34,830 bases of DNA, taken from Anaerolineales bacterium. GTDB lineage: Bacteria; Chloroflexota; Anaerolineae; Anaerolineales; UBA6663. The notes below the pieces were generated by a model, which saw only the letters and a list, made by a program, of their open reading frames with translations, had not been told where the DNA came from and did no database searches. Positions 5,545 through 28,528 of the stretch are shown here, piece after piece. Each line of letters begins with the position of its first letter. The stretch's first letter is position 1. Location: the NCBI GenBank assembly GCA_025057205.1, contig JANWXR010000004.1, forward strand, positions 1-34,830, given 5' to 3'. A program made the position numbers and the translations under genes.

Positions 5545-5577
5545 GTGAGCGCTCGGCGCAAGGCGAGTTGCTTCTTT

Positions 5578-5770
5578 ACCGCAGAGCGCGCCGAGTGCGT
5601 GGAGATATGACAATAAAGAACGCTGCGCTCTCGTAACTGCTCAGCTGTCCTGATTTATCCGCAGATTACGTAGCTTTTCGCAGAGGCAATCTGTGACCAT
5701 CTGTGACATCTGTGGATTCTTTTCAACGGCTGGAAGCCGTTGCCTGAGCAGTTACGCGCTCTCTTCGGTT
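5578..5770. repeat. Nonamer-periodic palindromic REP-like element interrupted by a MITE
   Basis: ACCGCAGAG CGCGCCGAG TGCGTGGAG ... CTGCGCTCTC[insert]GCGCTCTCTTCGGT; the arms are imperfect inverted repeats. Confidence 0.65.
5633..5755. mobile_element. MITE-A copy 1 (123 bp; 12-bp TIR; 8-bp TSD)
   Basis: GTAACTGCTCAG (5633-5644) ... CTGAGCAGTTAC (5744-5755) is a perfect inverted repeat, flanked by direct repeat GCGCTCTC (5625-5632 and 5756-5763). Internal palindromes ATCCGCAGAT..ATCTGTGGAT and CAACGGC-TGGAA-GCCGTTG. Confidence 0.9.
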
Positions 5771-7963: not shown

Positions 7964-10375
7964 TCATTTCCCGATTTGAAACTCCACCCACTTCTTTCGC
8001 AGCCAATACGCACTACGCGATACGTAGCATGTTGCAGTCAACGCGCTCACCACAAGTCCCACCGACCACGTCCACGGCTCAAAGCGCATCTCAACGATGT
8101 GTTCGCCCGGCTCGGCTAGCGGCACGGCGCGGAAGGCAAAGTTGGCACGTAGCACTTCCACCTCGACCCCATTCACCCAGGCGCGCCAGCCGGGATACCA
8201 CACTTCGCTCAGCACCAGGTAGGCTGGGGCCGGCGTGCTCACAGCGATGCGGTAGGCCTCCGGCGAATAGTGCAGGTAGTAAAGATTTGAGTTCGGGGGT
8301 TGAAGGTCGGGCAGCGGCAGAAGCGCAGACGTTTCCAGCACGACCTCCCGTGTGGGGTCGAAGTCGGGCGCCACGATTGCGGCGAAGGCGGCCTCGCCAT
8401 CTGGCACTGCCCGCGCCGCGTACTTCAGGCTGATTCGCGGCTGCGCGTTGGTGTTCAGCCAGATGTCCACGCCGGGGTCGTCGTTGAAGACGGGGACGAT
8501 GTCCGGGTCGTCGGCGGGCGGCCGGTCTTTGGCGGCTACAATCCACTGCGCGCCGAGGAAGTCGTAGCGCGGCGCACCACGCGGCCCCATCGAGCCGATG
8601 TAGGTCTGATAAGCCGCCAGCACCAGCGGATTGCTCACCCCGCCGATGTCCTCCAACCCGTGCCGCGCTGCCGCGTCCGGCGCCCAGGCGCCCGTGGTCG
8701 AGTCAATGCGCGTCGGGCCGGGCCGGCTCTTCAGGTAACCAACGGCAACGGGATGTTGGAAGCCGAGCGTCGGGTCGGCGAAGTCCACCTCGACGAACGC
8801 GCCGTGGAAGAACAGGTCGGCGGCGAGGACGATGATGGCGAAGGCGGGGGCGAGGGAGGATAGAGAGTAGCGAGTAGAAAGTAGTAAGTAGGCGGCGAGG
8901 AGCAGGGCGAGGGTTACGGCCAAAGTCCAGAGCAGGTTCGATACCCGCTCTCCGGCTGGCGCTACGACAAGATATGCAATGACCAAGATTGCTACAGCCA
9001 CAACGCCAAATCCGGCAACCCATCGCCCTCTCTCTTTGCACTCCGCGTTCTCTGGGGTGAACACTCTCTGAAAGCCGAAGCCCGCCAGCACGGCCAGCCC
9101 CAGGTCGGTCAGCAGAACAAACCGCGCCGGCGCGCGCATTTGCGCAAAGCCGGGGACGAACTCGTAGAGCAAGCGATGCAGCGGCGTGTTCTCGCCGAGG
9201 GCGATGAGCAGGCTGAGGAAAGCAAGGGTTGCCCAGAACCCTTGGGTGCTGAGTCGGTGACCGGGTGAGTGAGCGATGAGGTGAGTGGAGCCGCTGTGCG
9301 AAGTTGTTGTGCCGGGCCTCTCAATCAAGGCGATGCCGGCGAAGACGAGCGGCAGCATGCCCAGGTAGCCCAGCTCAACGCGCAGCCACGGCCCCCAGTA
9401 ATCCGCGGCGCCGCGCCCGAAGAGCAGCGGTGAGACGAATCCGGCCAGCCCCGCCCAGGGCAGGGAGTACAGCGCGGCTTCGGGGTACCTCAGCCGCGCG
9501 CGCGCCGTGTACTGGGTCAGCTCAAGCGCCGGCAGCAACGCCAGGGCGCTCAGGCCGAGGGCGGCGAGGAAGACGAGGCTGAGGAGAATCGCAGAGCGTA
9601 TTGCGTATTTCGTATTCCGTTCACGCAACACGCAATACGCTATACGCCATACTCCCATACAGCCTATTGCCCCAAAGCTTATCAGCATCATCTGCGCGTG
9701 GCCGGCCAGCGCAGCGATGCTCAGCACCGCGCCTGCGGCCAGCGCCCAGTTCACGCTGCGGCGCGTCAGGCTGAGATGCAAACAGGCCAGCGCCAGCGGC
9801 AGCCAGGCCGACACCGCGACGATGTTCAGGTTGCCGATGTGCGTGACCAGGACATCGGAGAACATGAAGGCGACGGCGGCAAAAATAGAAGGAAGAAGGA
9901 AGAAGGAAGAAGGTGGAAAGAAGGGAGAAGGAAGAGGGTGGAAGGTTGAGGTTGGAGTGGCGTGAGCGCCCGCTTTAGTGTTCTCTTGCGTGCCGAGTAG
10001 GACTCGCATTAATACATACATCGAAGCGCCGGCCAGCCAGAAGTGAAAGACCACCAGCCATTCGATAGCGCGGTAGGGGAAAGAGGGCGCCAGCGCGAAG
10101 GCGAGCAGGTTGGGGGGGTAGAACAGGCCGCTCTGGTTATCGGCGGCGAAGGGCATGCCGGCGTAGAGCGTCTCGTTCCACAGCGGAATGCGCCCGCTCC
10201 ATAGCGCACGCGCTGCGTACGAGTACGTCGGCCAGAGGAAGGAGGCCAGGTCACCGCCGCCGCGCGGGATCCACGCCACGCCCAGCGTCACCGGCCAGAA
10301 GAAGATAAGCGCCAGGCCCGCCAGCGCCGCCAGCGCGATCCAGTCATGACGATGCCGGCGAAGCCAGACACCCAT
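7964..10375 (-). CDS. YfhO-like multi-pass membrane protein (GT-C glycosyltransferase-like)
   Basis: GDLASFLWP..GRIPLWNETLYAGMPFAADNQSGLFYPP, many TM segments, RAPARF, and C-terminal YLVLSEVWYPGWRAWVNG..RANFAFRAV..GEHIVEMRFEP typical of YfhO. Confidence 0.88.
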   Translation of the reverse strand: MGVWLRRHRHDWIALAALAGLALIFFWPVTLGVAWIPRGGGDLASFLWPTYSYAARALWSGRIPLWNETLYAGMPFAADNQSGLFYPPNLLAFALAPSFPYRAIEWLVVFHFWLAGASMYVLMRVLLGTQENTKAGAHATPTSTFHPLPSPFFPPSSFFLLPSIFAAVAFMFSDVLVTHIGNLNIVAVSAWLPLALACLHLSLTRRSVNWALAAGAVLSIAALAGHAQMMLISFGAIGCMGVWRIAYCVLRERNTKYAIRSAILLSLVFLAALGLSALALLPALELTQYTARARLRYPEAALYSLPWAGLAGFVSPLLFGRGAADYWGPWLRVELGYLGMLPLVFAGIALIERPGTTTSHSGSTHLIAHSPGHRLSTQGFWATLAFLSLLIALGENTPLHRLLYEFVPGFAQMRAPARFVLLTDLGLAVLAGFGFQRVFTPENAECKERGRWVAGFGVVAVAILVIAYLVVAPAGERVSNLLWTLAVTLALLLAAYLLLSTRYSLSSLAPAFAIIVLAADLFFHGAFVEVDFADPTLGFQHPVAVGYLKSRPGPTRIDSTTGAWAPDAAARHGLEDIGGVSNPLVLAAYQTYIGSMGPRGAPRYDFLGAQWIVAAKDRPPADDPDIVPVFNDDPGVDIWLNTNAQPRISLKYAARAVPDGEAAFAAIVAPDFDPTREVVLETSALLPLPDLQPPNSNLYYLHYSPEAYRIAVSTPAPAYLVLSEVWYPGWRAWVNGVEVEVLRANFAFRAVPLAEPGEHIVEMRFEPWTWSVGLVVSALTATCYVSRSAYWLRKKWVEFQIGK
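8861..8891. repeat. Heptamer tandem repeat inside the YfhO-like CDS
   Basis: TAGAGAG TAGCGAG TAGAAAG TAGTAAG TAG, encoding YLLLSTRYSLS. Confidence 0.75.
9596..9660. repeat. Palindromic heptamer repeat (GCGTATT/AATACGC) inside the YfhO-like CDS
   Basis: GCGTATT GCGTATT TCGTATT CCGT..ACGC AACACGC AATACGC TATACGC CATACTC; the same family is intergenic at 24551-24607. Confidence 0.85.
9887..9955. repeat. AGAAGGA heptamer tandem repeat inside the YfhO-like CDS
   Basis: AGAAGGA x3, AGAAGGT..AGAAGGG AGAAGGA AGAGGGT GGAAGGT, encoding STFHPLPSPFFPPSSFFLLPS. Confidence 0.85.
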
Positions 10376-13115: not shown

Positions 13116-15746
<2,631 letters not shown>

Positions 15747-15782: not shown

Positions 15783-16211
15783 TTAGCGGATTTCCAGGCG
15801 CCGAGGCTGGAGCTTGGGCAGGGTGATGCGTAGGAAGCCGTCTTCGTACTCCGCCTGAATCTCGGCGGTCGCCACGGCGGTGGGCAATTCGACGTCAACG
15901 CGAAATTCCCCAAAATTGATTTCGATCTGATGATAGGACCGGGGCACGGAACGGTCGTGCGGGCGTATGCCGGCAATCATCAGACGGCGGTCTTGTAACT
16001 CAATTGAGATGTTCTCACGCCGCATCCCGGCCAGCTCCACCTGTACGACGATGGCCGTCTCGGTCTCATAGATGTCGGTCGGGGGCCGCCAGGCATGCGA
16101 GCGACGACTGGCTAGCCAACCCGTGCCGGTGGAGTATGCGCCTGTGAAAAGGACTTCGACCAACGAGGGGTCGTCTGAGGGGCGGGATTGTCGAGGCCGG
16201 TGCGCGGTCAT
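15783..16211 (-). CDS. Hsp20/alpha-crystallin small heat-shock protein
   Basis: WRPPTDIYET..VELAGM..GEFRVDVELP..AEYEDGFLRITLPK; ATG 16211 with GGAGG RBS. Confidence 0.93.
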   Translation of the reverse strand: MTAHRPRQSRPSDDPSLVEVLFTGAYSTGTGWLASRRSHAWRPPTDIYETETAIVVQVELAGMRRENISIELQDRRLMIAGIRPHDRSVPRSYHQIEINFGEFRVDVELPTAVATAEIQAEYEDGFLRITLPKLQPRRLEIR

Positions 16212-16286
16212 CGCTGAAGCCTCCAAGCTTGCGAGCAATTCATCGGTGCCGGAATTCTACCATAGCCTCCACCGAGAACCTCGTTG

Positions 16287-16376
16287 GTGTGCACGCAAAA
16301 CATGTCAGTCGCACCCTGAGCGGAGCGAAGCGCAGTCGAAGGGGCGGCACGTTCCCTGACAACTTGGCGTGCACAC
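16287..16376. mobile_element. MITE-B (90 bp; ~22-bp imperfect TIR; 8-bp TSD) carrying a REP-like motif
   Basis: GTGTGCACGCAAAACATGTCAG ... CTGACAACTTGGCGTGCACAC, with direct repeat CCTCGTTG at 16279-16286 and 16377-16384. Cargo CACCCTGAGCGGAGCGAAGCGCAGTCGAAGGG. Confidence 0.85.
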
Positions 16377-16410
16377 CCTCGTTGGAACCGCGAAGACCCG
16401 GAGGATGCGA

Positions 16411-16533
16411 GTCAATGCTCCGCTATCCTGATTGAGCCACAGATGTCGCAGATTTTTGCGGAAAAGAGTCTGTGACTATCTGCGATGTTTGTGGAATCTC
16501 CAGCCCATCGGCGATTATGGCCTGAGACGTTGT
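16411..16533. mobile_element. MITE-A copy 2 (degenerate, 123 bp) inside a nonamer REP-like element (~16387-16597)
   Basis: GTCAATGCTCCGCTATCCTGATTGAGCC resembles GTAACTGCTCAGCTGTCCTGATTTATCC; right end CTGAGACGTTGT; shared core TCTGTGACYATCTGYGAYRTYTGTGGA; TSD GGATGCGA/GGATGCAA; same length as copy 1. Confidence 0.82.
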
Positions 16534-16635
16534 GGATGCAAAAGAGAACAAAGGCGAATCCTTCGCCCTGTTCGCCGCTCTCTTCGCGCCTCGGCGGCGA
16601 GTGCGCGGTATTTGAGGCCCCGCTGCCGGTCAATC

Positions 16636-18054
16636 TCAGTTACCGAACACCATCAGCACGACACGCGGCGTGAGGAAGGCCTCAAGCAGGGCAGCCATCG
16701 CCAGCAGGGGAATGACCAGCCCAAGCAAAATCTTGGCCCAATCGGCCAGCGCCAGCAACCAGCCTTCGCTTAGAGTCTTGCCGGGCGGCGGCGCGATGAC
16801 GCTGGCGCCCAGGCGCAGAATCGCACCGCCGGCGAGCAGGGCCGCCGGGATTTCGGCCACGCCGTGCGGCAGGATGAAGGCGGCGAAGAACGACAGCGGC
16901 GAGACGCCGGCCAGCGCCAGCTGCCCGGCGAAGAAGCCGGTGAGCGCCAGCGGCACCATCAACAGGACGATGGCCAGCACGCCCCACGAAAATATGCCGA
17001 GAAGCGAGGCGAAGCCGAGCGCGCGCAGGTTGATGAGGAAGACCCAGCTCGCACCGGTGGGCGAGAAGAAACCGAACTGCGCGAAATGCTCAGCGGTGTC
17101 CTCCAGCAGCCGGAAGTTGCCCGCAACAAACAGGTTGGGATACTGCGACGCCTGGCTGTAGCCGAGGAGCACGGCGCCGAACAGCGCCAGTCCGAGCACC
17201 GCAATTGGTGCGCGCAGGCGCGCAACCGTCGGGAACACTTCTTTCCGGTACCAGCCGGCAAGGCCCGCTCTCTGGCCTGCGCCTACAAAGCCCTGCGCAA
17301 AGGTGCGCCAGGCTGCTTTCAGGTTAAGCTCGTCCAGGTCGCGGCCCAGCAGTTCTTCGCGATTGAAAAGTTGCACGCCCATTCGCAGCAGGATGAACAG
17401 GATGAGCAACAGCGCCAACAGAATCCACCAGAGGGCCTCGTACCGTCCCCAAAGCATGATGACGCTCTCTCCCTGAATGAGCAGGGCAAAGGGGATGATG
17501 ATGAACGAAGCCAGCAGGTTAGCAGCGCGCACCGAGGTGGCCTGCGAGGAAACCACAACCGCCCCGGCGACCATCACTAATCCTTGCACGGTGGTCAGCG
17601 CCAATATCTGTATCAGGAGGACAGGCTCAGCAAACCAGCCCACCGTCAGCGCCAGGCCGACCAGATAGACGAAGATGCCGAGATACGATGACAGCAGTGG
17701 CGGGAGAGTGGAGGCCAGAATCTTGCCGACGTACAGTTCCGTGTCTGTGAGCGGCGAAGCCAGCAGCGGCTCCAGGCTGTGCCGTTCCTTCTCGCCGACG
17801 AAGCTCTCCAGCGCGATGACGAGCGAGACGGAGATGGGGAAGAAGCCGACTACCATCAACAGGAAGGGCACCAGCCGCTCACCAAGGATGTTCGCGCCGT
17901 GCTGCGCCATGAAGTCGAGCATGCGGTCGGCGGTGAAGTTCATCAACAGTGGGAAGAAGAGGGTGAGCACCACCACCGGGAAGATGATTCGCCAGTCGCG
18001 CAGCTGGTCGCGTAACTCGCGGCGGGTGACGATGAGGGCGCGGGAGAGAGTCAT
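16636..18054 (-). CDS. ABC-2 type permease fused to a SpoIIM-like domain
   Basis: N-half RRELRDQLRD..ESFVGEKERHSLEPLLASP..GK (ABC-2/NatB-like); C-half INLR..ILPHGVAEIPA..AALLEAFLTP (SpoIIM). Confidence 0.88.
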   Translation of the reverse strand: MTLSRALIVTRRELRDQLRDWRIIFPVVVLTLFFPLLMNFTADRMLDFMAQHGANILGERLVPFLLMVVGFFPISVSLVIALESFVGEKERHSLEPLLASPLTDTELYVGKILASTLPPLLSSYLGIFVYLVGLALTVGWFAEPVLLIQILALTTVQGLVMVAGAVVVSSQATSVRAANLLASFIIIPFALLIQGESVIMLWGRYEALWWILLALLLILFILLRMGVQLFNREELLGRDLDELNLKAAWRTFAQGFVGAGQRAGLAGWYRKEVFPTVARLRAPIAVLGLALFGAVLLGYSQASQYPNLFVAGNFRLLEDTAEHFAQFGFFSPTGASWVFLINLRALGFASLLGIFSWGVLAIVLLMVPLALTGFFAGQLALAGVSPLSFFAAFILPHGVAEIPAALLAGGAILRLGASVIAPPPGKTLSEGWLLALADWAKILLGLVIPLLAMAALLEAFLTPRVVLMVFGN

Positions 18055-20692: not shown

Positions 20693-20752
20693 TGACTGAT
20701 AACTGAAGACTGAAGACTGAAGACGGATGATTGAGTCTTCAGTCATCAATCA

Positions 20753-27473: not shown

Positions 27474-27501
27474 TCAGTCATCAGTCTTCAGTCATCAGTT
27501 A
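27474..27501. repeat. TCAGTCW heptamer tandem repeat
   Basis: TCAGTCA TCAGTCT TCAGTCA TCAGTTA; same family as 20693-20755. Confidence 0.8.
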
Positions 27502-28408: not shown

Positions 28409-28528
28409 GACTCCAGTGCAAAAACTATGATCTCACCGCGAAGCCGCGAAGGGCGCAAAGGCTTTGCTCCTGTTTTCCTTAGCGTTCTTGGCGTCTTCGC
28501 GGTTCACATGGACTTTTTTCAGTAGAAC
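28409..28528. mobile_element. Degenerate MITE-C carrying a nonamer palindromic REP-like element
   Basis: Left GACTCCAGTGCAAAAACT versus reverse-complemented right GTTCTACTGAAAAAAGT; flanks CACAACAT/CGCAACAT (7 of 8). Cargo ACCGCGAAG CCGCGAAG GGCGCAAAG ... CTTAGCGTT CTTGGCGT CTTCGCGGT (28435-28503). Confidence 0.55.

What the first reader, a model, noticed from the sequence alone, without database searches (positions are those of the whole stretch)
16387..16597. Second 123-bp MITE-A copy, again inside a nonamer REP-like palindrome: target-specific element
Seen: 16411-16533 is colinear with 5633-5755, has identical length and has its own 8-bp TSD (GGATGCGA/GGATGCAA). It interrupts ACCGCGAAG-ACCCGGAG..CTTCGCGCCTCGGCGG. 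The TSD sequences differ but the host repeat type is the same. Known: some ISs target REP sequences. Inference: a non-autonomous element family that homes into these periodic palindromes.
Basis: partly seen in the sequence, partly recalled or inferred. Interest (0 to 1): 0.72.

Follow-up and report, generated by a model that had tools for sequence, protein, structure and literature searches.

The report
Decayed MITE nested inside another MITE
This is a worn-out copy of a small non-coding jumping element that happens to lie inside the remains of a different small jumping element; across the genome it shows no preference for such sites, so the find is real but ordinary.

Summary
16411-16533 is a 123-bp member of the same repeat family as 5633-5755, with a 7/8 target-site duplication (TSD), and it interrupts a palindrome built of nonamer units.

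The family ("MITE-A") has 89 loci in this 2.48-Mb Anaerolineales MAG. Its terminal inverted repeat (TIR) is GTAACTGCTCAG and its TSD is 8 bp. The same TIR ends ~1.5-kb single-ORF IS66-family insertion sequences in related genomes, so MITE-A is an IS66-type MITE. Copy 2 is an old, decayed copy shared with the sister genome.

- The "nonamer palindrome" is itself a MITE ("family C": 245 loci, own TIR, 8-bp TSD).
- Only 2 of 27 complete MITE-A copies lie in family C, and both are in this window. Family C covers 4.7% of intergenic background points (P=0.36).
- Counting loci with an intact end, the figure is 3 of 70 against 5.1% expected (P=0.70).

Nesting mostly runs the other way. Twenty of 245 family C loci sit inside MITE-A (P=2e-9). 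Family C prefers CAYNNNTG targets, a motif repeated inside MITE-A.

This is a new member of a known kind, of low to moderate interest.

The parts
16411..16533 (+). MITE-A copy 2. It is 123 bp and decayed: left end GTCAATGCTCCG matches the consensus GTAACTGCTCAG at 9/12, right end CTGAGACGTTGT at 8/12. It is 79.7% identical to the young-subfamily consensus.
   Evidence: DNA fold z = -2.6 against -8.7 for a young copy
16403..16410 (.). Left copy of the 8-bp target-site duplication of copy 2 (GGATGCGA).
16534..16541 (.). Right copy of the target-site duplication of copy 2 (GGATGCAA; 7/8 match).
   Evidence: the sister genome G001 has GGATGCAA on the left side too
16271..16286 (+). Left terminal piece of the host element, a decayed family C1 MITE whose core is the nonamer palindrome. 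Its last 8 bases (16279-16286, CCTCGTTG) are the left TSD of the family B element.
   Evidence: reconstruction and nhmmer; comparison with G001
16385..16410 (+). Second piece of the host C1 relic (GAACCGCGAAGACCCGGAGGATGCGA). This is the left arm of the nonamer palindrome.
   Evidence: model positions 7-111 of 121 once the two insertions are removed; consensus
16542..16614 (+). Third piece of the host C1 relic: the centre and right arm of the nonamer palindrome.
   Evidence: nhmmer C1 hit at 16525-16614, E=6e-6 genome-wide
16287..16376 (+). A third, unrelated MITE (family B, ends GTGTGCACGC), 90 bp, inserted into the left end of the C1 relic. Its TSD CCTCGTTG lies at 16279-16286 and 16377-16384. 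It is absent at this site in G001.
5633..5755 (+). MITE-A copy 1, 123 bp, with a perfect 12-bp TIR and a perfect TSD GCGCTCTC (5625-5632 and 5756-5763). It is shared with G001 (97% identity).
5574..5632 (-). Relic of a family C3 MITE (nonamer units ending in GAG) that hosts copy 1.
   Evidence: nhmmer C3 hit at 5574-5634, E=2e-6; 29.9 bits after reconstruction
28409..28528 (-). Intact family C1 MITE in the same window. It shows what the 'nonamer REP-like palindrome' looks like when complete: ends of the CACTGAAAAA type and a core running ACCGCGAAG...CTTCGCGGT.
   Evidence: 126 bits, model positions 2-121
16636..18054 (-). Upstream gene: membrane protein with ABC-2 and SpoIIM domains. Its stop codon lies just right of the repeat cluster.
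15783..16238 (-). Downstream gene: Hsp20 family small heat-shock protein.

Best explanation
16411-16533 is an old, inactive copy of an IS66-family-derived MITE (MITE-A: about 123 bp, TIR GTAACTGCTCAG, 8-bp TSD, no target consensus). By ordinary cut-and-paste or copy-in transposition it landed, in trans to a transposase encoded elsewhere, in an intergenic spacer that already held a MITE of a different family (family C1, whose core is the nonamer palindrome). Both window copies sit in such relics by coincidence, because both families accumulate in permissive intergenic DNA; this is not homing. Shown: family membership, TIR, TSD, copy number, a filled/empty polymorphism between sister genomes, identity of the TIR with IS66-type ISs, the identity of the host palindrome, and the absence of flank bias. 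Inferred: the IS66-type transposase is what moves MITE-A, and the order of events at the locus was C1 first, then MITE-A before the G000/G001 split, then family B in the G000 line only.
For: Family and ends: 89 loci, 27 of them complete, with shared TIRs and an 8-bp TSD (13/27 perfect, 5 at 7/8, 3 at 6/8). Mobility: G001:C75 carries a copy where G000:C133 has the empty site. A young subfamily has mean pairwise identity 97.8%. The distribution is patchy: matches in 5 of 41 related genomes, two of them (G016, G030) single weak hits, and none found in 3 of the 4 other genomes of the genus. Partner: nine ISs of 1.3-1.7 kb in eight genomes of the order carry the same 12-14-nt ends on both sides. 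The one in the same genus encodes a single 487-aa protein with DUF6444, zf-IS66 and DDE_Tnp_IS66 domains. Two of these ISs have perfect 8-bp TSDs. The window's own genome keeps a relic in which GTAACTACTCAG is fused to a truncated IS66 DDE ORF. Host: C1 and C3 profile hits abut both window copies, and the reconstructed site 2 gives a near full-length C1 match. No homing: 2/27 against 4.7% (P=0.36); 3/70 against 5.1% (P=0.70). A perfect inverted repeat of 8 bp or more spans the empty site in 2/21 against 15.7% of background points. Empty sites fold less well than background (-33.6 against -36.9 kcal/mol). Nonamer unit motifs are not enriched and no 6-mer passes Bonferroni correction. Age: G001 has both copies at the same sites, while G003 has neither the MITEs nor the palindromes there.
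Against: Both copies in this one window lie in family C relics. Taken alone that is unlikely (about 0.05 squared), and it is what prompted the finding. MITE-A copies are moderately enriched within 60 bp of short-period (6-10 nt) tandem arrays: 10/27 against 16.4% (P=0.008). This weakens to 6/20 (P=0.10) on contigs of 3 kb or more. Some regional bias therefore cannot be excluded. The genome is a 63.6%-complete MAG in 715 contigs, and 19 of 89 loci have no readable terminus with flank. The intergenic background rests on a crude home-made gene caller. No intact IS66-type transposase was found in G000, G001 or G025. Only 2 of the 8 IS copies with readable flanks show a TSD. Beyond about 14 nt the MITE and IS ends are unrelated.
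Confidence: 0.85

Rival explanations
1. One reading: MITE-A is target-specific and homes into nonamer REP-like palindromes, in the way some ISs target REP sequences.
For: Both window copies lie in such palindromes. A third case, on contig C346, was found genome-wide.
Against: 2/27 complete copies against 4.7% background (P=0.36). 3/70 loci with an intact end against 5.1% (P=0.70). There is no enrichment of palindromes, folding energy or unit motifs in the flanks. None of 5 further non-orthologous copies in G001 and G025 lies in a palindrome. The three G025 loci examined have MITE-A but no family C hit. The TSDs have no consensus.
Confidence: 0.04
2. MITE-A has a weak regional preference rather than sequence-specific homing. 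It tends to land in, or survive in, the repeat-rich and slightly AT-richer intergenic stretches that also collect short tandem arrays and other MITEs.
For: Arrays of period 6-10 lie within 60 bp of 10/27 copies against 16.4% of background points (P=0.008). The top flank 6-mers are A/T-rich, for example CCAAAA and AAGAGA. Flank GC is 0.54 against 0.57. The polymorphic G001 insertion lies inside a CACGAATN array.
Against: 0/27 copies lie inside an array, against 7.2% of background points. Within 10 bp the figure is 2/27 against 9.6%. The signal falls to 6/20 (P=0.10) on contigs of 3 kb or more, so part of it comes from repeat-rich short contigs. No 6-mer survives multiple-test correction.
Confidence: 0.25
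3. The cluster has been co-opted. The MITE hairpins act as a terminator or regulatory spacer between the ABC-2/SpoIIM membrane-protein gene and hsp20.
For: The cluster lies between two co-directional genes. MITE-A folds into a long hairpin. The insertions are conserved in G001.
Against: In G003 the two genes nearly abut with none of the three elements. Copy 2 has lost most of its fold (z = -2.6) and has decayed to 79.7% identity. No Rfam family matches. G000 and G001 have each acquired further, different insertions at the site.
Confidence: 0.07

Closest known systems
IS66-family insertion sequences of the single-ORF type (the 'ISBst12 group'; the name is recalled, not taken from any call) and MITEs derived from ISs in general
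   Same: Ends begin with GTAA and the TSD is 8 bp. Both are recalled as hallmarks of IS66. Both are met here for the MITE and for ~1.5-kb ISs in relatives that carry the identical 12-14-nt termini and a DDE_Tnp_IS66 transposase.
   Different: The element has no coding capacity. Only the terminal ~14 nt are shared with the ISs. The internal part is a hairpin made of CCRCAGAT / ATCTGTGR repeats. No intact partner was found in the genomes that carry the MITE. My three literature searches (listings only, plus passages of two papers) turned up no described IS66-derived MITE and no MITE study in Anaerolineae. That is not proof that none exists.
REP/BIME-targeting insertion sequences (IS1397- and ISKpn1-type behaviour; recalled)
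   Different: Those ISs insert into REP palindromes in nearly all copies. Here the figures are 2/27 and 3/70, at background level. The host palindrome is not a REP: it has its own TIRs and an 8-bp TSD.
Nested MITEs, as described in plants and cyanobacteria (recalled)
   Same: Small non-autonomous elements are inserted into one another and so give a relative order of events. Site 2 has three layers, and contig C432 has a MITE-A carrying at least two family C insertions.
   Different: The nesting here is directional and explained by sequence. Family C has a CAYNNNTG target preference (23/49 against 0.36%), and MITE-A carries that motif in its internal repeats.

Membership tests
MITE (miniature inverted-repeat transposable element) | Short, dispersed, multi-copy element | tested here: met
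   89 distinct loci; the 27 complete copies are 105-125 bp long
MITE (miniature inverted-repeat transposable element) | Terminal inverted repeats | tested here: met
   Family consensus GTAACTGCTCAG / CTGAGCAGTTAC. In copy 2 itself only 9/12 and 8/12 positions survive.
MITE (miniature inverted-repeat transposable element) | Target-site duplication of fixed length | tested here: met
   8 bp. Of 27 complete copies, 13 are perfect, 5 match 7/8, 3 match 6/8 and 6 match less than 6/8. Copy 2 matches 7/8.
MITE (miniature inverted-repeat transposable element) | Presence/absence polymorphism at orthologous sites | tested here: met
   The site is filled in G001:C75 and empty in G000:C133. For copy 2 itself no empty site that still holds the palindrome was found.
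IS66-family derivative | Same termini as an autonomous IS that encodes a DDE_Tnp_IS66 transposase | tested here: met
   Nine ISs in eight genomes of the order have both ends GTAACT(G/A)CTCA.... L033 encodes 487 aa with DUF6444, zf-IS66 and DDE_Tnp_IS66 domains.
IS66-family derivative | 8-bp TSD shared by the IS and the MITE | tested here: inconclusive
   The MITE shows it clearly. Among the ISs, 2 of 8 with readable flanks are perfect (AAAGAAAG, AAATCACT) and 6 of 8 show none; most of these ISs sit on short contigs.
IS66-family derivative | Functional partner transposase in the same genome | tested here: not met
   G000 and G001 hold only a truncated or stop-ridden relic, and G025 has no match. 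G000 is 63.6% complete, so absence is not shown.
IS66-family derivative | Mobilisation by that transposase | not testable with these tools
   This needs a transposition assay.
REP-targeting mobile element | Most copies inserted in the host palindrome | tested here: not met
   2/27 against 4.7%; 3/70 against 5.1%; 0/5 extra copies in other genomes
REP-targeting mobile element | Fixed insertion position within the palindrome | tested here: inconclusive
   There are only three cases: model coordinates 33 (C3), 34 (C1) and 80 (C1), with unrelated TSDs.
REP-targeting mobile element | Host repeat is a REP (no TIR or TSD of its own) | tested here: not met
   The host family has CACTGAAAAA-type TIRs and its own 8-bp TSD.

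The most novel reading that the evidence does not exclude
The real target specificity in this genome belongs to the palindrome-bearing family C MITEs, not to MITE-A. Family C integrates at CAYNNNTG octamers. Because MITE-A carries that octamer two or more times in its internal hairpin repeats, MITE-A acts as a landing pad, so one MITE family preferentially parasitises another (20 of 245 family C loci, and 25 of 29 junctions). The transposase responsible is unknown and was not found in the 23 genomes of the family searched for the terminus.
Probability: 0.7. Interest if true: 0.45.

Novelty: new member of a known kind. Interest (0 to 1): 0.28.

Why it matters
The main value is for annotation and for method. 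Three MITE families (A, B and C) fill the intergenic DNA of this Anaerolineales lineage. They probably explain much of the assembly fragmentation, since many contigs under 1 kb end in them (inferred). They also create spurious ORFs and misleading 'REP-like' palindromes. Tying MITE-A to single-ORF IS66-type ISs gives it a testable transposase. The case shows that two copies in one window can suggest a target preference that disappears genome-wide. The layered insertions (C1, then MITE-A, then family B) and the filled/empty sites in sister genomes give a relative clock for this uncultured lineage. The one mildly surprising by-product is a MITE family with a strong CAYNNNTG target preference that often inserts into another MITE.

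Tried and rejected
1. IS256 as the partner of family C. A 554-bp contig (G000:C574) joins a family C2 end to a Transposase_mut C-terminus. Alignment with the 96-99% identical IS copies in G003 showed that the IS ends before the C2 sequence, so the IS simply sits inside a C2 MITE. I rejected this idea.
2. ISL3 as the partner of family C. PF01610 has no hit in G000, G001, G002 or G003.
3. An autonomous MITE-A-type element in the window's own genome. TIR pairs 130-6000 bp apart gave only nested MITEs and chance pairs. The 28-nt perfect match on C28 is a solo MITE end beside ordinary genes.
4. A known RNA family. Rfam at gathering thresholds finds only three tRNAs in the window.
5. Empty sites for the young copies. 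G001 contigs break at or near the C554 site, and the flanks of C333:25656 were not found. At C333:34259, a copy without a TSD, synteny with G001 ends exactly at the MITE edge.
6. A census of the family outside the order. A strict 34-nt left-end pattern in the species-representative genome collection hit only 3 loci of one 'MAG: Anaerolineales bacterium'.
7. Literature. Three searches and passages of PMC3189936 and PMC9769881 gave nothing on IS66-derived MITEs or on MITEs in Anaerolineae.
8. The scan's own index. Look-ups by sequence, by words and by place returned nothing on this element.

Full report
OBSERVATION

Blastn gives 73.8% identity over the central 84 nt. Copy 2 (16411-16533) is flanked by GGATGCGA and GGATGCAA, a 7/8 match. 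Copy 1 (5633-5755) is flanked by a perfect GCGCTCTC. The match is not chance. A profile built from full-length copies finds 112 hits that collapse to 89 distinct loci in the 2.48-Mb, 715-contig genome, and 27 of them are complete. The window is contig C444 of that genome.

THE FAMILY (MITE-A)

Aligned copies share the terminal inverted repeat GTAACTGCTCAG ... CTGAGCAGTTAC and an internal hairpin made of CCRCAGAT / ATCTGTGR repeats. The 8 bp on either side match as follows in the 27 complete copies: 8/8 in 13, 7/8 in 5, 6/8 in 3, and less than 6/8 in 6. For random 8-mers, P(>=6/8) is 0.0045. The duplicated octamers have no consensus and a GC content of 0.54.

There are two subfamilies. Six copies of the copy-2 type (on C77, C333 twice, C554, C532 and C410) are 95.9-99.2% identical to each other (mean 97.8%). 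Copy 2 is only 79.7% identical to their consensus. Its ends match the consensus at 9/12 and 8/12 positions. As single-stranded DNA it folds with z = -2.6, against -5.5 for copy 1 and -8.7 for a young copy. Copy 2 is therefore an old, decayed member. Rfam has no family for it; the only matches in the window are three tRNAs.

MOBILITY AND AGE

Among 41 related genomes the element matches in five:
- G000 itself.
- The same-genus genome G001, with 23 matches.
- G025, from another family of the order, with 11 matches.
- G016 and G030, with one weak hit each.

It was not found in three other genomes of the genus. A strict left-end pattern in the species-representative collection hit only three loci of one "MAG: Anaerolineales bacterium". 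Earlier notes of this scan use the same taxon label for this genome.

G001 carries copy 1 at the orthologous site (97% identity). It also carries copy 2 with the same flanking octamer, further interrupted by another element. G003 has the flanking genes but none of the repeats. At site 2 the two gene alignments in G003 are 6 bp apart, against 378 bp in the window. At site 1 G003 has 72 unrelated bp. Both window copies therefore predate the G000/G001 split and postdate the split from G003.

One clear filled/empty pair was found. G001:C75 has a MITE-A flanked by CGAATACA / CGAATGCA where G000:C133 has the uninterrupted site.

THE AUTONOMOUS PARTNER

The window's genome has one DDE_Tnp_IS66 match, at C310:13429-14418. 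Directly in front of it, at 13425, stands GTAACTACTCAG, a MITE-A end variant. It is fused to a transposase ORF that lacks its N-terminal domains and its C-terminus, so this is a relic.

I searched 201 genomes of the order with that protein, and 17 had a match at E<=1e-20. In nine loci from eight genomes the transposase gene lies in a 1.3-1.7 kb element. Both ends of each element read GTAACT(G/A)CTCA..., identical to MITE-A over 12-14 nt. The same-genus example (L033, 1516 bp) encodes a single 487-aa protein with DUF6444, zf-IS66 and DDE_Tnp_IS66 domains.

Two of the eight ISs with readable flanks have perfect 8-bp duplications, and six show none. Most of these ISs sit on short contigs. Ends starting with GTAA and an 8-bp duplication are, from recall, the hallmarks of the IS66 family, and single-ORF members are what I recall being called the ISBst12 group. 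MITE-A is therefore best read as an IS66-type MITE. No intact partner was found in G000, G001 or G025, although G000 is only 63.6% complete.

WHAT THE "NONAMER PALINDROME" IS

A clean example lies at 28409-28528. Genome-wide, 56 paired copies were found by their ends. They fall into three subfamilies:
- C1: 111 or 123 bp, with a core of ACCGCGAAG-type nonamers and their complement.
- C3: about 100 bp, with nonamers ending in GAG.
- C2: 111 bp, with an unrelated core.

All three share ends of the type G(A/G)(G/C)TC(C/T)ACTGAAAAA. Profiles find 245 loci covering 22.8 kb. With the element taken to extend 4 nt beyond the (C/T)ACTG, the flanking octamers match at 70% of positions on average, and 7 of 49 are perfect. 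All other registers give 19-29%. The "REP-like palindrome" is therefore itself a MITE family with an 8-bp TSD.

Profile hits abut both window copies of MITE-A: C3 at 5574-5634 (E=2e-6) and C1 at 16525-16614 (E=6e-6). I removed MITE-A plus one TSD, and the 90-bp family B element at 16287-16376 plus one of its CCTCGTTG duplications. This restores a near full-length C1 match (43.1 bits, positions 7-111 of 121, against 26.5 bits as the sequence stands). G001 lacks the family B element at this site. The exact family C terminus occurs 36 times in G000 and 61 times in G001. It occurs in none of 21 other genomes of the family, and the reversed control pattern gives 0.

TEST OF HOMING

The background was 931 intergenic gaps (60-800 bp) between genes called by a simple codon-usage caller. 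That caller found 2308 genes covering 80% of the genome. Points within 70 bp of any MITE-A were excluded.

| Test | MITE-A | Background | Result |
|---|---|---|---|
| Complete copies inside or abutting a family C locus | 2/27 (both from this window) | 4.67% of 40,000 points | P=0.36 |
| Same, within 20 bp | 3/27 | 6.3% | not enriched |
| Same, within 60 bp | 3/27 | 8.6% | not enriched |
| Loci with an intact terminus and at least 30 bp of flank, whose terminus abuts an internal family C position | 3/70 | 5.1% | P=0.70 |
| Perfect inverted repeat of 8 bp or more spanning the reconstructed empty site | 2/21 | 15.7% | not enriched |
| Folding energy of the 120-nt empty site | -33.6 kcal/mol | -36.9 kcal/mol | less structured than background |
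| At least 2 hits to nonamer unit motifs within 40 bp | 2/27 | 6.4% | not enriched |
| Forward unit on the left and reverse unit on the right within 70 bp | 1/27 | 3.3% | not enriched |

In addition:
- No 6-mer among the 1101 tested passes Bonferroni correction.
- Five further non-orthologous complete copies in G001 and G025 are not in family C. The nearest family C fragment is about 190 bp away.

One result points the other way. Short-period tandem arrays (period 6-10, at least 2.5 copies; 1287 in the genome) lie within 60 bp of 10/27 copies against 16.4% of background points (P=0.008). Within 30 bp the figure is 7/27 against 12.9% (P=0.05). Inside arrays it is 0/27 against 7.2%. On contigs of 3 kb or more the signal drops to 6/20 (P=0.10). 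A weak regional bias cannot be excluded.

THE NESTING THAT IS SIGNIFICANT

The roughly 250-bp and roughly 500-bp "variants" of MITE-A are MITE-A copies that carry family C insertions. I classified the 29 junctions where the two families abut:
- 25 join a family C terminus to an internal MITE-A position (model positions 35-90, mostly 57-86). These are family C inserted into MITE-A.
- 3 join a MITE-A terminus to an internal family C position. These are the two window copies and C346.
- 1 is internal on both sides.

The 25 junctions involve 20 of the 245 family C loci. MITE-A occupies 1.5% of the crude non-coding DNA, giving P=2e-9, or P=0.011 if that share is tripled.

The reason is visible in the family C duplications. 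Their consensus is CAYNNNTG: C at position 1 in 38-42 of 49, A at position 2 in 37-38, C or T at position 3 in 39, T at position 7 in 36-37, and G at position 8 in 46 (left) and 27 (right). The full motif is matched by 23 of 49 left-hand octamers, against 0.36% of intergenic octamers (P about 1e-43). MITE-A carries CATCTGTG twice in copy 1 and CACAGATG in copy 2.

HISTORY OF THE LOCUS (INFERRED)

An ancestral, almost spacer-less junction lay between a membrane-protein gene (ABC-2 and SpoIIM domains, 16636-18054, minus strand) and hsp20 (15783-16238, minus strand). It received a C1 MITE. MITE-A then landed in the left arm of C1; the octamer GGATGCGA corresponds to the consensus GAACGCTA. Both insertions happened before the G000/G001 split. 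Family B then entered the C1 left end in the G000 line, and a different element entered MITE-A in the G001 line. The spacer is now 397 bp.

COMPARISON, NOVELTY AND LIMITS

The element works like, and qualifies as, an IS-derived MITE of the IS66 type. Three literature searches returned nothing on IS66-derived MITEs or on MITEs in Anaerolineae. For these I saw listings only, plus passages of PMC3189936 and PMC9769881. Subscription papers and ISfinder/TnPedia were not searchable, so I claim only "not found". The scan's own index had nothing on this element.

The limits are an incomplete and fragmented MAG, a crude gene caller for the background, only three MITE-A-into-family-C events, and no experimental link between transposase and MITE.

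Two partner hypotheses for family C were tested and dropped:
- IS256: the apparent fusion on contig C574 is an IS sitting inside a C2 MITE.
- ISL3: no hits.

VERDICT

This is a new member of a known kind, of low to moderate interest. The by-product worth keeping is family C's target preference and its habit of inserting into MITE-A.

Noticed in passing
window 16287-16376 (TSD at 16279-16286 and 16377-16384): A third MITE family (family B), with ends GTGTGCACGC and a usual length of 101-104 bp. It has about 280 termini on each strand and 90 paired copies in the genome. Its TSD is 8 bp (33/90 perfect, 48/90 at 7/8 or better) with no target consensus. The copy here is absent from the orthologous site in G001. 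No partner transposase was identified.
   Followed up: partly
genome-wide; example at window 28409-28528: Family C MITEs (245 loci, three subfamilies, two of them with nonamer-palindrome cores) have an 8-bp TSD with the consensus CAYNNNTG (23/49 against 0.36% background). Twenty of the 245 sit inside MITE-A copies. The exact terminus is found only in G000 and G001 among 23 genomes of the family. The transposase is unknown.
   Followed up: yes
G000:C310:13425-14418 (L030/L032): Relic of an IS66-type IS. A MITE-A-type end (GTAACTACTCAG) is fused directly to a 330-aa ORF that holds only the DDE_Tnp_IS66 domain and is truncated at both ends. A family C1 MITE follows at about 14500. G001:C64 holds the same relic with stop codons.
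   Followed up: partly
G000:C574 (L029), 554-bp contig: An IS256-type (Transposase_mut) IS is inserted into a family C2 MITE. The same IS (96-99% identical at protein level) lies at four contig ends in G003, so it is probably an active multi-copy IS in the genus.
   Followed up: partly
G000:C333:34259-34381 (L054 10260-10382) compared with G001:C328 around 7600: This young MITE-A copy has no TSD (CATGATTT / CAATAGTC), and synteny with G001 ends exactly at its left edge. This is either a MITE-mediated rearrangement or a mis-join of the MAG assembly at the repeat.
   Followed up: partly
window 9596-9652, 20694-20728, 27474-27499, 8861-8891; genome-wide: The genome has very many short tandem arrays of 7-9-nt units (1287 arrays of period 6-10). 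Units include GACTGAA, AGATTGG, ACGCAAT and CACGAATG. The CACGAATG unit fits the family C target consensus, and the G001 MITE-A polymorphism lies in such an array, which is two units shorter at the empty site in G000. The origin of the arrays is unexplained.
   Followed up: no
L015 (G025:C87), around 1501-1621: A MITE-A copy is inserted into the terminal repeat of another MITE-A copy (TSD TGAGCAGT). This self-nesting occurs in a genome of a different family, one in which no IS66-type transposase was found.
   Followed up: no
window 16239-16635 compared with G003:C9:43641-43648: The junction between the ABC-2/SpoIIM membrane-protein gene and hsp20 is almost spacer-less in G003. In this genome three layers of MITE insertion have expanded it to 397 bp. 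The effect on co-transcription is unknown.
   Followed up: no
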